From Octopus vulgaris (lineage: Eukaryota): a stretch of DNA of 64,000 nt. A model generated the notes under the pieces. That model worked only from the letters and a program-made list of their open reading frames with translations, ran no database searches and had not been told where the DNA came from. The stretch lies in NCBI GenBank assembly GCA_951406725.2, contig OX597818.1, positions 121,458,001 to 121,522,000 of the forward strand, written 5' to 3'. Positions 3,191-56,070 of this stretch are shown here, one piece after another. Position 1 is the first letter of the stretch; every line of letters begins with the position of its first letter. The translations under genes were made by a program, and so were the position numbers.

Positions 3191-3850
3191 TATCTTAGTA
3201 GGTCGTTCAGAATATATTTGCTTGTATGTTGAAAATATAGAGGAATCCAAATTTAGCCTCATGTTAGCATGATAAAGATTATCCTATCAGAGTATTAGTT
3301 ATAATATGCTGTAAATTATTTTTCTGTAAATTTTTAGGTAATATTCTTCGCGTCAAACTTAAAGTGAATGTTATAAACACACTATTTTGACAACACTAAA
3401 AATCTATACATCATTTACTTGTCACTTGTGCCCTGCCGTCAATATAAAGGTCCAGGAGACAGCTGAAGACGAAATCTACTAAAATGTGACACATAAAACT
3501 GAAGAGTCGTAAAAAAAAAGCAGTAATCTAGGTTTTCTTACAGGCGAAATATTTGCATGATTCAGAACTTCTAAACTACTTATATGTTTAGATAACATGC
3601 GTGGATCAAGATATGAGGATGATAAGAATTTGGTGAAAAGTTGTTGCAAGAAAGTGCGATAAGAACAAGAAATACAATTTTTGGTTGATCTATAGATATA
3701 TGCGCATGTCCTGGAAGGAACTTCTCTTTATGTAAGATAAGGGAAATTTAATAATTTTCAAGGAACTTTCAATTATAGAGAATGTGTATTTGTAGAATAT
3801 GAAGGAAAAAGGTGTGAGGAAAGAAAAGTGTGTTAATAAAGCCATCCGTT

Positions 3851-3897
<47 letters not shown>

Positions 3898-4092
3898 CTT
3901 ATAAACAAGAGCAAAAGAAAAAAATTCTAATGCCCAATATGCCGAAAATAGACACATCGGCATATTTGTCATTAGAATTTTTTTTTCTTTTGCCCTTGTT
4001 TATAAGTTGTTTATAAATTTAACCTTTAAATGTATTTTTTAATATGCTGGCCATTGATAGAATTTTTTTCGAAAAATATTGTCCTATATTAG

Positions 4093-4177
<85 letters not shown>

Positions 4178-4179
4178 AT

Positions 4180-4410
4180 AGGAGCGTTGATTAGTGGTTA
4201 AAGTATTTGGTTCATGATGAAAAGGTAGCGTTTTCAATTCCCGGAGGCGCGTTCGGTCTTTGAGCAAGGCACTTTATTTCAAGTTGCTCCAGTCGTCTCA
4301 ACTGGCAAAAATGAGTTGCATCTGTAATTTAAAAGGCCAGCTTTCTCATATCCTTTGTCACACTGAATCTCATTGAGAACTACATGAAGGGTACGCATGT
4401 CTCGCACGTT
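4180..4410 (+). mobile_element. SINE family B
   Basis: tRNA-like head (ttagtggttaaag..ttcaattccc), then ttgagcaaggcactttatttc..ttgctccagtc; matches 43645-43972. Confidence 0.8.
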
Positions 4411-4437
4411 AATTTCGAGGGCACACTGTTTCGTTGA

Positions 4438-4528
4438 AACTTGCCCAAAGTGCCACGCGGTGGAACTGAACGCGAAACCACGCGGCTGGGAAGCGAGGTT
4501 CTTAACCATGCAATCATGCTTACGCCTA
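4438..4528 (-). mobile_element. SINE family D head fragment
   Basis: Reverse complement resembles 39992-40080. Confidence 0.65.
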
Positions 4529-4833
4529 TATAATATCTATAATAAAAATCAGAAAAGCATAAATTTCACAAATAGATTATACTTTATGTTCAACAGCTGT
4601 TTCATTGCCATTAAACGTAATTAATTTCATGATTATGAATTTAGGTACATTAATGGTACAATCTAAATTAAATTATTTCAAAGTAATTGTTTATCTTAAT
4701 TACTTAATAATGGAATTAATGTTTTTCTCTTTTTTTTTACAAATGCAACAGCGCCTGAAAGTAATTAAATAATGAACTATAAGTGGAATTTATAATTTTC
4801 TGCTTTTTATCCTTAATATACGTTGCTTTAAAG

Positions 4834-5044
4834 CAGTAGTTGCCAATATTTTCACAGTGGTTCCCAACAACGGTAGTTTCCAACTCTTTTATTCAAATGA
4901 GTTCTCCCACGAACCCCTTTAAATATGCTTATCCTTATATATATATATATATATACACATGAAATTTTGAATTTAGTTCACGAACCACCAGTAGTACCTT
5001 TGCGGAGCATCAAGGGTCCGCGGACACCAGGTTGGGAATGACTA
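4834..5044. mobile_element. hAT Charlie/MER5-like MITE
   Basis: cagtagttgccaa/cagtggttcccaac ... gttgggaatgacta; flanks ctttaaag / ctctaaaa (8-bp TSD-like, 6/8). Confidence 0.6.
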
Positions 5045-5110
5045 CTCTAAAAGATAGTTTTAATTACTGTGGATTATTGTCTTCTGCTTATGCATCAGTC
5101 CTCTCTTTCA

Positions 5111-5183
<73 letters not shown>

Positions 5184-5385
5184 GATAAATCTCAGACCGA
5201 GTTATAAACAGTAGCGGCAACACATCGTGACGTATATTTGCCATTTGAATATGGTTAACCCCTAAGGGTGGATGCTACTGTAGTTTGTAGCCCCAGGAAG
5301 CTGGAGGTGTCTTCCTGGGGGCTACAAACTACAGTAGCATCCACCCTAATGGGTTAGCCATATTCAAATGGCAAATATACGTCAC

Positions 5386-5422
<37 letters not shown>

Positions 5423-5700
5423 ATAAATTAGAAAAAAAAACACCTTTTATCAATTCAAAATGAACAATTAAATTATATATAATAGAAATATTGAAATTAA
5501 AATAACAATAATATATTATTTTAATTTTAATATTTTTACAATATGTAATTTTTTAGATGGTGTAATTTAATTGTTCATTTTGAATTGATACAAGGTGGTT
5601 TTTCTAATTTTTTTATATATATTTTATTGTTTGAAATTTGATTTAGTATTTCTAAATTGAATTTTTTCCCTGTAAGTTAGGATTAATATTCCCTCAAATA

Positions 5701-5765
<65 letters not shown>

Positions 5766-6009
5766 GACCGATACATACATATATAGATATATTTCAATAT
5801 TATGTATGTAAACATCGGTGCCTTGTTGTACCACTACTCTGTATTTACATAGCTATTTGTCTTTATGTATATAGTATAAATTAGTATACATATTGCTATA
5901 CAAAACAAGGTAGCACAACTAAGGATTTATAATATGGAATGGTGAGGAAGTCTAACCTCCGACCCTGCCACAAGAATACGCCATGTTCTTTACTAATCTA
6001 AACAATATT

Positions 6010-6223
6010 TATTTATTTATTGCCCACAGGGGGCTAAACACAGAGGGAACAAACAAAGACAGACAAAGGGCTTAAGTCGGTTATATCGACTCCAGTGCGT
6101 AACTGGTACTTAATTTATCGACCCCGAAAGAATAAAAGGCAAAGTCGACCATTTGAACTCAGAACGTAACGGAAGCCGAAATACCGCTCAGCATTTCGCC
6201 CGACGTGCTAGCGATTCTGCCAG
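6010..6223 (-). mobile_element. SINE family A with 17-bp TSD
   Basis: TSD ctaatctaaacaatatt at 5993-6009 and 6224-6240. Confidence 0.92.
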
Positions 6224-49984: not shown

Positions 49985-50990
49985 ATAAGATCATATGCAT
50001 TAAAATGGGCAAAAGCCAGCCAAGATGAAAGTCAGGAATTTGAAGCAACATGAACAGAAAGAATCTAGTGATACGACAAAAAACGAAAATCGCTGAAAAG
50101 CTACCAAGATACCTTGACCATAAAATTACCAATTTTCTTCGATTTATTATTGAAATGAGGCAAAGTTATCAGTTTCCTATGTTATGTATCGGAAACATTG
50201 ATGAGACCCCATTAAACTTTGACATGATGCGTGATAGAATGGTTAACATGAAAGGCGCAAAAACTGTGCATGTTACAGACACGGGTCATGAAAAGACATG
50301 GTTTGCGGTCGTGTCGTATTATCGTGCGTGGCTAACGGAACGAAACTGAAACCCATGATAATTTTTAAGTGAAAAACTAAGCCTAAAATAAATTTTCCTT
50401 CTGGAGTATTTGTTCATTTTCGCGAAAAAGGATGGATAGATAAGTATGGCATAAAATTGAGGATAGAAAATATTTGGAGCAGACGTCCTGGTGGGATAAA
50501 AAATGAAAGAAGTCTATTGGTTTCGGATATGTTTTGTAGCCACATAACAGAGAACACTAAGGCCAGATTATCACGAAATAATAGTGATATTGCAGTTATA
50601 CCTGGTAGTCTGACCACTTTACTGCAGCCACTAGACGTCAGTCTAAACAAACAATTTAAAGATAATGTGAGAGAGATATGGAGTAATTGGATGCTGCACG
50701 GAGAGAAATTTTTTACAAAAGGCGGAGCTATGCGTGCGACTTCAGTGGATGTTTTGTGTGAGTTTGTTATAAATGCATGGGGAAACGGGAAGAAAGAAAG
50801 TATAGTAAAATTATTAAAAATGCCGTATCTCTAATGCAATGGATGGTACGGATGATGATACGCTGTATGAGATTGAAGATGAAACCTAAGCAGATTCACC
50901 AGATTCTAAGTGGGACCCTTACATTGAAACTCTAAAGGATTTGCTTGACGAACGTTTGGGTCAGATGATGATGATTGTAGCAATTTTGAA
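49985..50990 (+). pseudogene. pogo-superfamily (DDE_1, POGK/Tigger-like) transposase pseudogene
   Basis: IGNIDETPLNFDM..KGAKTVHVTDTGHEK, KLKPMIIFK, LLVSDMFCSH..AVIPGSLTTLLQPLDVSLNKQFKD; frameshift at about 50320 and stops. Confidence 0.9.
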
Positions 50991-53027: not shown

Positions 53028-53298
53028 AAAAAAATCGCCGGAAACAATCGCAGTAATGAAATCATAGGAATCCAAAATTTCAGGATTGTAGGTCCAGATT
53101 CGGCCCGGAATGTTTTTACTTTACTCACGGGAGTTGGCCTTTAGATTATAAAAATTGTTATGGTACAAAAAAATTTGTCGCAAAAAGTCATATAAAAAAA
53201 TTGCCGAAAACAGTCACAGTAATGAAAATCTGGGAATCCAAAATTTCAAGATTGCGGGTTTAGATTCGGCCCAAAATGTTTTTAATTTACTCACAGGG
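53028..53298. repeat. Two diverged ~100-bp direct repeats, period about 166 bp
   Basis: cagtaatgaaa..ggaatccaaaatttca.gattg..agattcggccc..aatgttttta.tttactcac occurs twice. Confidence 0.85.
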
Positions 53299-53409: not shown

Positions 53410-53710
53410 TTAGCTGGCAGAATCGTTAGCACGCCGGGCGAAACGCTTAGCGGTATTTGGTCTGCCGCTACGTTCTGAGTTCAAATTCCGCCAGGGCCGA
53501 CTTTGCCTTTCATCCTTTCGGGGTCGATTAAAAATGTGCCAGTTACGCACTGGAGTCGATGTAATCGACTTAATGCGTTTGTTCCCTCTGTGTGTAGCCC
53601 CTTGTGGGCAGTAAAGAAATAGGTATTTCGTTTGCCATTAGGTTTTGAGTTCGAATTCCGCTGAGGTCGACTTTGCCTTTCATCTTTTCGGAGTCGATAA
53701 AATTAGTACC
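53410..53710 (+). mobile_element. SINE family A dimer
   Basis: Head, core, tail1 and a second core. Confidence 0.88.
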
Positions 53711-54165
53711 AAAATTTGAGGCATTGTAATTCCAATAAAAAGGATTTATTAAAGTTGAAAAAGTGTGACACATTTATCATATTAGATATGTCCAAATTGG
53801 GGGAAACTTTATTTCCATGAAAGTGTATATGTATCAAAGAAAGCAAAACAAAAATGATAGTGTTCAGTATGTTGGTCACTGGAATTTCTGTCAAAGAGAT
53901 ATGGTTAAACAAAGTTGTACATCATCTCCCTCTTTCTCTCTTATTATTACTGCCACTACTTTTAATCAAATATCAACTCTCCCTAAATTTCTTTGTCTCT
54001 CTCTCTCTCTTCTCTCTTTCTGTCTGTCTTCTCCACCGCCCTCACCGTCCCTATACTTACTATTACTCTCACCCCAGCACGAGGAATAGCAGAAGTGTCA
54101 TTGATTAGTGAGAGAGGGGGGTCAAAGTGTGACGCACTAACACACAAATTAGTTTTCGCATTTAT

Positions 54166-54208
<43 letters not shown>

Positions 54209-54235
54209 AAGGGTGAAAAGGAACACACGAGTTGA

Positions 54236-54678
54236 TATATATGAAAAAACAAGTAAAAAATAGAAAATGCTAAAATAATTTTATAGTGAACATTTCAGTA
54301 CCGGTTTCGGTCATTTTGAGACCTTTTCAACTGTAACGATTAAATAATTAAATTTAGAAAAATTAGAAGAAAAGTTTTTTTAAAAGAATATTTCTATAGT
54401 AGTGTTCAGATTTAAGTGGCATTCTGCCTTTCTCTGACTCCCTTGTTTGCACTTTGCACACAAGTGCAAACAAGGGAGTCAGAGAAAGGCAGAATGCCAC
54501 TTAAATCTGAACACTACTATAGAAATATTCTTTTAAAAAAACTTTTCTTCTAATTTTTCTAAATTTAATTATTTAATCGTTACAGTTGAAAAGGTCTCAA
54601 AATGACCGAAACCGTACTGAAATGTTCACTATAAAATTATTTTAGCATTTTCTATTTTTACTTGTTTTTTCATATATA
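54236..54678. repeat. Near-perfect palindrome, ~218-bp arms, 7-nt spacer
   Basis: Arms 54236-54454 and 54462-54678; spacer tgcacac. Confidence 0.97.
54296..54333 (-). ncRNA. Minimal hammerhead with U3:A8 core (mirror copy at 54583-54619, +)
   Basis: cag-TTGAAAA-ggtc tcaaaat gacc-GAAA-ccgg-TA-ctg. Confidence 0.65.
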
Positions 54679-54744
54679 TATATATATACACATTCACACA
54701 CACACACACACACAAAACACACACACATATATGTAAATATATAC

Positions 54745-56070
<1,326 letters not shown>

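What the first reader, a model, noticed from the sequence alone, without database searches (positions are those of the whole stretch)
54236..54678. Young ~440-bp palindrome with two mirror hammerheads using a compensatory U3:A8 core
Seen: the arms differ only by a few single-base indels, the spacer is 7 nt and both ends run into (TA)n. Each arm contains cag-UUGAAAA-ggtc/gacc-GAAA-cc(g)g-UA-ctg. Relative to CUGANGA both C3 and G8 are changed, keeping the 3:8 Watson-Crick pair that the active hammerhead needs. The minus copy keeps the ACCGGU palindrome; the plus copy has lost one G. Inference: a very recent insertion from a family with a rare variant core. Transcription in either direction would give about 218 bp of dsRNA.
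Basis: partly seen in the sequence, partly recalled or inferred. Interest (0 to 1): 0.8.

Follow-up and report, generated by a model that had tools for sequence, protein, structure and literature searches.

The report
Head-to-head ends of a Penelope-like retrotransposon
The palindrome is two head-to-head terminal repeats of a young Penelope-like retrotransposon family (about 1,900 matching copies here) inserted in a TA microsatellite; its odd hammerhead core is the family norm and already described in such elements, so it is ordinary, and the ribozymes are predicted to be shut off at this spot.

Summary
The palindrome and both hammerhead motifs are real. Each arm is the terminal repeat (pLTR) of a young, roughly 4.4-kb Penelope-like retrotransposon with RT and GIY-YIG domains. 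The genome holds 1,921 exact motif matches and about 57 near-identical sibling palindromes. UUGAAAA is the family norm: only 4 matches have C3, 3 have G8 and 1 has both. U3:A8 cores and nearby opposite-strand hammerhead pairs in Penelope-like elements were published in 2014.

In 46 of 47 head-to-head pairs exactly one arm has this tail. This argues against a fold-back artefact and suggests both ends of a cut (TA)n were primed at two adjacent start sites.

The 'lost G' is doubtful: all 8 G-less copies genome-wide sit in tight palindromes, which show excess small indels, so assembly error is likely. A read-through RNA would form a roughly 217-bp hairpin predicted to abolish the ribozyme fold. 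New member of a known kind; low interest.

The parts
54201..54454 (-). Left arm: pLTR of the Penelope-like family with tail (positions -131 to +123 counted from the first G of helix II)
   Evidence: 200 nt identical to 15 of 99 sampled copies
54201..54235 (-). Optional ~34-nt 'tail' between the two family 3' end points; 54201-54205 is ambiguous with the (TA)n target
   Evidence: exact match to the tandem unit in L096 out to 54201; two discrete 3' ends in 96 of 99 copies
54291..54338 (-). Minimal type I hammerhead motif, U3:A8 core, intact ACCGGU palindrome at helix III, predicted cleavage triplet GUA
   Evidence: sequence; monomer and dimer folds; weak Rfam HH9 hit below threshold
54455..54461 (.). 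Head-to-head junction; CACAC is parental to the right arm; TTTGCAC repeats a 7-mer of the left arm, as in a templated end-joining scar (inferred)
54457..54679 (+). Right arm: pLTR without tail (about -136 to +89), with two single-base deletions in homopolymer runs
54578..54624 (+). Second hammerhead motif, reading ACCGU instead of ACCGGU in this assembly
   Evidence: 8 such copies genome-wide, all in tight palindromes
54172..54204 (.). Left part of the (TA)n target microsatellite
   Evidence: sequence
54672..54688 (.). Right part of the (TA)n target microsatellite, overlapping the element's own AT-rich end
   Evidence: sequence

Best explanation
This is a very recent, short insertion of a Penelope-like retrotransposon made of two terminal repeats joined head to head, one with and one without the family's 34-nt tail, likely formed when both ends of a cut (TA)n microsatellite primed reverse transcription on the element's RNA. 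Shown: family identity, copy number, two discrete 3' ends at AT-rich motifs, the one-tail rule, and a 5' stop zone shared by many copies. Inferred: the RT-GIY-YIG protein cuts both strands of (TA)n. One DNA end primes at the upstream AT motif (+89) and the other at the downstream one (+123), which lies in a predicted stem-loop. Both cDNAs run to the RNA's 5' end near -151 (an initiator-like TCAC, the likely start of transcription). They are then trimmed back 15-20 nt and joined by microhomology with a few templated bases. The hammerhead is a passenger of the pLTR. In the parent it is predicted to cleave only as a dimer through ACCGGU, with U3:A8 replacing C3:G8. At this locus the inferred start site is gone, and any read-through RNA would fold into a ~217-bp hairpin, so the ribozyme is predicted to be inactive here. 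The missing G is more likely than not (about 0.7) a sequence error.
For: Arm matches dozens of loci at 99-100%. Upstream sequence encodes RT plus C-terminal GIY-YIG in ~4.4-kb tandem units. Among the first 100 motif hits on contig C1, 22 of 25 neighbour pairs within 10 kb are head to head, 0.18-4.3 kb apart. 96 of 99 copies end at +89 (62) or +120 to +123 (34). 46 of 47 head-to-head pairs have exactly one tail. Arms of a pair differ by 0.64 substitutions on average against 3.6 between random copies. 27 of the 46 arms that stop within 400 nt do so between -160 and -121. About 57 sibling palindromes join at this zone through many different junctions. The cofold of two intact motifs gives the dimeric hammerhead; helix II pairing probability inside the hairpin is 0. 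A Penelope-like protein cleaves and extends both strands and starts at two adjacent sites that define the tail (PMC11167929).
Against: GIY-YIG scores 21.1 bits, just under Pfam's 22.6 cut-off. Exceptions to the one-tail rule exist (L118, two tails; L120, no tail, with a 77%-identical partner). In the anole element, priming needed no homology to the cut DNA, unlike the AT pairing inferred here. Arm identity could also come from later gene conversion. No target-site duplication can be read inside (TA)n.
Confidence: 0.85

Rival explanations
1. The palindrome is a fold-back read chimera or misassembly of a single pLTR copy.
For: The right arm has two homopolymer deletions. Tight palindromes show arm-to-arm indels in 11 of 17 pairs against 4 of 23 widely spaced pairs (p=0.003). 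No read support could be obtained.
Against: The flanks are not mirrored. Only one arm has the tail, which a mirror cannot produce, and the same asymmetry holds in pairs kilobases apart. About 57 siblings have varied junctions.
Confidence: 0.04
2. One cDNA folded back and copied itself (self-priming), giving the second arm, as proposed for rotifer Penelope elements.
For: Many sibling junctions are perfect or near-perfect palindromes centred on TCGA, GTAC or GTGCAC. Self-priming was proposed in PMC3846280. It would explain the arm identity.
Against: A fold-back arm must be a sub-copy of the first arm. In at least 6 of 22 sampled pairs (L136, L141, L145, L160, L167, L172) the tailed arm is the shorter one, so neither arm contains the other. 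At this locus the tail-less arm also reaches 5 nt further 5', though that margin is small.
Confidence: 0.12
3. Two independent insertions hit the same (TA)n and happen to face each other.
For: The family targets (TA)n, and nested insertions occur (L031; L038 has a TA run between its arms).
Against: There is no (TA)n between the arms here. Orientation is head to head in 22 of 25 close pairs. The one-tail rule holds in 46 of 47, and arms belong to the same subfamily.
Confidence: 0.02
4. The missing G in the right arm is a true mutation, perhaps from error-prone synthesis or repair at hairpin-forming DNA, rather than a sequence error.
For: Substitutions between arms are also higher in tight palindromes (27 in 17 pairs against 13 in 23, hand tally), which fits real instability or greater age.
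Against: Both differences are single-base losses in homopolymers of one arm. Siblings often show several same-direction 1-nt losses in one arm, whether tailed or not (L107, L115, L118, L052, L054, L057). All 8 G-less copies lie in tight palindromes against 17 of 99 sampled copies (p=3e-6).
Confidence: 0.3

Closest known systems
EN+ Penelope-like elements with a CX2-5CxxC linker (Neptune/Nematis type; PMC8557442)
   Same: RT with DKG motif, CX4CX2C linker and C-terminal GIY-YIG; tandem units, pLTRs, inverted 5'-truncated copy, 30-40-bp tail at one end, (TA)n targets, hammerhead in the pLTR.
   Different: Nearest database proteins are only about 60% identical and unnamed. Clade not placed on a tree. 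The RT ORF lacks its own ATG near the usual start and overlaps an upstream ORF.
Minimal hammerheads of Schistosoma mansoni Cercyon PLEs (PMC4209133)
   Same: U3-A8 core (about 1,300 hits reported there), tiny palindromic helix III that needs a dimer, and pairs of motifs 100-700 bp apart on opposite strands.
   Different: Here helix II is 4 bp with no extra base between positions 9 and 10.1, and the variant core is nearly fixed in one young, homogeneous family rather than heterogeneous.
PAc (Poseidon of Anolis carolinensis; PMC11167929)
   Same: Two adjacent internal start points that bound the tail, a stem-loop there, AT-rich targets and a hammerhead in the pLTR.
   Different: PAc has a C3-G8 core and started without homology to the cut DNA. 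Here both end points are AT-rich motifs continuous with the (TA)n target, so base-paired priming is inferred.
Animal non-LTR retrozymes
   Same: Type I hammerhead with a short helix III in a short repeat related to pLTRs (abstract start and passages of 10.64898/2026.07.22.740005).
   Different: Retrozymes are head-to-tail tandem non-coding units. This locus is head to head and comes from an ORF-bearing parent.

Membership tests
EN+ Penelope-like element | RT with C-terminal GIY-YIG endonuclease | tested here: met
   RVT_1 E=3.5e-8; GIY-YIG E=4e-4 (21.1 bits, cut-off 22.6) in L031; many homologs carry PF01541. The ORF is in the parent, not in the window.
EN+ Penelope-like element | Tandem or partial-tandem units forming pLTRs | tested here: met
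   ~4.4-kb tandem units in L095-L097 and L099
EN+ Penelope-like element | Inverted 5'-truncated copy at the 5' end | tested here: met
   22 of 25 close pairs head to head
EN+ Penelope-like element | 30-40-bp tail, often at one end only | tested here: met
   3' ends at +89 and about +123; one tail in 46 of 47 pairs
EN+ Penelope-like element | Hammerhead motif in the pLTR | tested here: met
EN+ Penelope-like element | Target-site duplication (variable in this group) | tested here: inconclusive
   cannot be read inside (TA)n
Neptune/Nematis clades | CX2-5CxxC motif between RT and endonuclease | tested here: met
   KCGRPNCGICDY in the translations; feature defined in PMC8557442
Neptune/Nematis clades | RT phylogeny with named references | not tested
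   no named reference sequences were fetched
Minimal type I hammerhead ribozyme | Core U4 G5 A6, A9, G12 A13 A14, A15.1-U16.1, H17 and a Watson-Crick 3:8 pair | tested here: met
   sequence; 3:8 is U:A in the family and C:G in L062 and in the unrelated motifs L102-L104
Minimal type I hammerhead ribozyme | Helices I and II, and helix III formed by dimerising a palindrome | tested here: met
   minus-arm motif: predicted monomer -9.8 and dimer -27.1 kcal/mol with intermolecular ACCGGU; helix I kept in two natural registers. The G-less arm does not form the dimer helix (-0.8 against -10.3).
Minimal type I hammerhead ribozyme | Self-cleavage | not testable with these tools
   needs an assay; published PLE minimal motifs cleave poorly in vitro (PMC4209133)
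Rfam hammerhead families | Gathering score | tested here: not met
   HH9 19.7 bits against 52, E=0.3; no other hammerhead family listed

The most novel reading that the evidence does not exclude
This family records the missing step of Penelope-like transposition. Nearly every head-to-head insertion has one tailed and one tail-less end, and short ones stop at the RNA start. That would mean one RT dimer primes the two ends of a double-strand cut at two staggered, TA-pairing sites, telomerase-like. The invariant ACCGGU palindrome of the U3:A8 hammerhead might then serve to pair template RNAs rather than to cleave them.
Probability: 0.3. Interest if true: 0.55.

Novelty: new member of a known kind. 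Interest (0 to 1): 0.22.

Why it matters
The locus itself is one of about 57 look-alikes and matters little. The family is a tidy natural test bed. It is young, holds long open RT-endonuclease frames, has a nearly fixed U3:A8 hammerhead with one natural C3:G8 copy, and shows a near-strict one-tail rule. These bear on how Penelope-like elements make their inverted ends, which PMC8557442 names as open. It also warns that single-base differences inside tight palindromes of this assembly should not be read as evolution without reads.

Tried and rejected
Raw-read check: 21 runs were listed, 20 holding part of the stretch; no RNA holder on record. This is no evidence on expression, and none could be laid, so presence/absence and the G remain open. 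Metagenome scan for relatives with flanks: 73 pattern hits, none confirmed, so cross-family covariation rests on three unrelated motifs in this genome. Rfam miRNA hits at the centre are below threshold and reflect the perfect hairpin. A cap-derived extra G at the junctions was rejected, because untruncated copies also carry G at that position. A canonical-core sister subfamily was not found: one copy only. Simple fold-back as the general mechanism was rejected. No host gene was recognised around the locus in a crude ORF listing (not scanned against a library). Earlier findings of the scan: nothing held. Lünse et al. 2017 (PMC5785218) is not held; Arkhipova 2006 was not seen. Either may already describe U3:A8 activity or the tail rule. 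No supplements were read.

Full report
Observation. The arms 54236-54454 and 54462-54678 align over 219 columns with no substitution and two single-base gaps, both in the right arm (one G of ACCGGT, one T of a T run); the spacer is TGCACAC. Both hammerhead-like motifs are as described, and both ends run into (TA)n. The flanks beyond the microsatellites are not mirrored. Rfam gives only a sub-threshold HH9 hit on the minus arm (19.7 bits, gathering score 52).

Family. The window lies in a 2.8-Gb genome with no relatives on hand. The right arm finds 726 candidates, of which 40 were scored, most at 99-100% identity. A 30-nt motif pattern with positions 3, 7 and 8 left free gives 1,921 exact matches and 0 for the reversed control; 99 of the first 100 read UUGAAAA. 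Only 4 matches have C3 and 3 have G8; one copy, L062, has both and is an older copy (about 89% identical in the pLTR, 95% in the ORF). [quoted passage not shown] It carries the DKG motif and a CX4CX2C linker, in tandem units of about 4.4 kb. The best database proteins are about 60% identical and unnamed. No part of the ORF is in the window. So each arm is the pLTR of an endonuclease-bearing Penelope-like element with a Neptune/Nematis-type linker; I did not place it on a tree.

Anatomy of insertions. I fetched the first 100 motif hits on contig C1 and recovered 99 copies (one hit was not fetched). This sample is limited to copies with an exact motif. Counting from the first G of helix II, 62 end at +89 and 34 at +120 to +123, each running into AT repeats; 3 end elsewhere. 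Both end points are AT-rich motifs, the second inside a predicted stem-loop. The window's left arm has the tail and matches a tandem unit exactly out to 54201; the right arm has none. Of 25 neighbour pairs within 10 kb, 22 are head to head. Exactly one arm has the tail in 22 of 22 of these, 11 of 12 hot-spot palindromes, 7 of 7 G-less palindromes and 6 of 6 other long pairs: 46 of 47, with three loci dropped because no pair was detected. Five more abutting pairs with both ends visible gave 4 of 5. Paired arms differ by 0.64 substitutions on average against 3.6 for random copies. Of the 46 arms that stop within 400 nt, 27 stop between -160 and -121; among 14 hand-picked junctions, 8 begin at -151 to -149, at an initiator-like TCAC. 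The window's arms stop at -131 and about -136. A junction pattern finds 58 matches per strand, about 57 loci including this one, with many different junctions: short self-complementary centres, deletions and templated repeats.

Mechanism. The simplest reading is that both ends of a cut (TA)n primed reverse transcription, one at each start site. The two cDNAs ran to the RNA 5' end and were trimmed and joined by microhomology. This is inference. It fits the in vitro finding that a Penelope-like protein cleaves and extends both strands, is predicted to dimerise and starts at two sites that bound the tail (PMC11167929, parts 1-2 of 4 read). It differs in that the AT motifs here suggest base-paired priming. 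Simple fold-back is disfavoured because in at least 6 of 22 pairs neither arm contains the other, although perfect palindromic junctions keep it alive for some tight cases, and PMC3846280 proposes it (passages).

The ribozyme. The intact motif folds with a 4-bp helix II and an interrupted helix I. Two copies cofold into the dimeric form through ACCGGU (-27.1 kcal/mol), and the G-less form loses that helix. Two natural variants keep helix I in different registers. Three unrelated motifs in this genome share GAAACCGGUA with a C3:G8 core. At this locus the motifs are on opposite strands, the inferred start site is missing, and the 405-nt core folds at -313 kcal/mol with helix II probability 0, so activity here is unlikely. 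Cleavage and expression were not tested.

The missing G. The G-less form occurs 8 times in the genome, and all 8 lie in abutting palindromes, against 17 of 99 sampled copies (p=3e-6). Leaving those 8 out, 11 of 17 tight pairs but 4 of 23 widely spaced pairs have arm-to-arm indels (p=0.003; hand tally, test), often several 1-nt losses in one arm. I read this as probable sequence error in hairpins (about 0.7). Substitutions are also higher in tight pairs (27 in 17 against 13 in 23), and six of the long pairs were chosen from the youngest hits, so real instability is not excluded.

Prior knowledge. PMC4209133 (parts 1-2 of 4 read) reports the U3-A8 core in Schistosoma Penelope-like elements (about 1,300 hits), motif pairs 100-700 bp apart on opposite strands, palindromic helix III and low activity as dimers. 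PMC8557442 (passages) describes inverted 5'-truncated copies, a tail often at one end only, (TA)n targets and an optional frameshifted ORF1. PMC2377424 (passages) shows an internal promoter in the Drosophila element. PMC6765202, PMC7151607 and the retrozyme preprint were seen as passages. My searches showed no description of this family and no count of the one-tail rule, but most subscription papers are missing, PMC5785218 was not held, and no supplements were read.

Verdict. A real feature and a new member of a known kind. Interest 0.22; the only fresh element is how strictly the family obeys the one-tail rule.

Noticed in passing
L031:3042-3782 and 3722-6073 (+); same in L095-L097: The parent has two overlapping ORFs in 46 of 48 occurrences checked (loci overlap, so not all independent). 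A U-UUU-UUA heptamer in the ORF1 frame would slip -1 into the RT frame; no strong downstream structure was predicted. The ORF1 stop also overlaps an AUA near where homologs have their ATG, so frameshifting or non-AUG reinitiation are both possible. A frameshifted ORF1 is noted as optional in PMC8557442 Fig. 1 legend.
   Followed up: partly
L062 (G000:C13:524780-524809, -): The only family copy with the canonical C3:G8 core; older and more divergent. Either ancestral or a double reversion; single-change copies also exist (L059-L061, L063, L064).
   Followed up: partly
L102, L103, L104 (centre of each): Three unrelated minimal hammerheads with a C3:G8 core and the same ACCGGU palindrome; L102 also shares the CAG/CUG helix I. 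No RT hit nearby in the fetched 3 kb.
   Followed up: partly
L008, L028, L037, L043, L045, L046: More divergent Penelope-like RT/endonuclease fragments (36-64% protein identity) next to family copies, so several related families share these targets.
   Followed up: no
window 53028-53297 and 53452-53711; also about 54770-54935: Pairs of 90-104-nt dispersed repeats about 170 nt apart and another abundant short interspersed repeat right of the insertion, also seen beside other loci; host repeats of the AT-rich genome.
   Followed up: no
window 50044-50831 (+) and 55163-55462 (-): Short frames that look like decayed DNA-transposon transposases (pogo-like and Tc1-like by recalled motifs, not scanned).
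   Followed up: no
L031:1255-2206: One family copy ends tail to tail against another across a short TA run, suggesting new insertions land in the (TA)n left by earlier ones.
   Followed up: no
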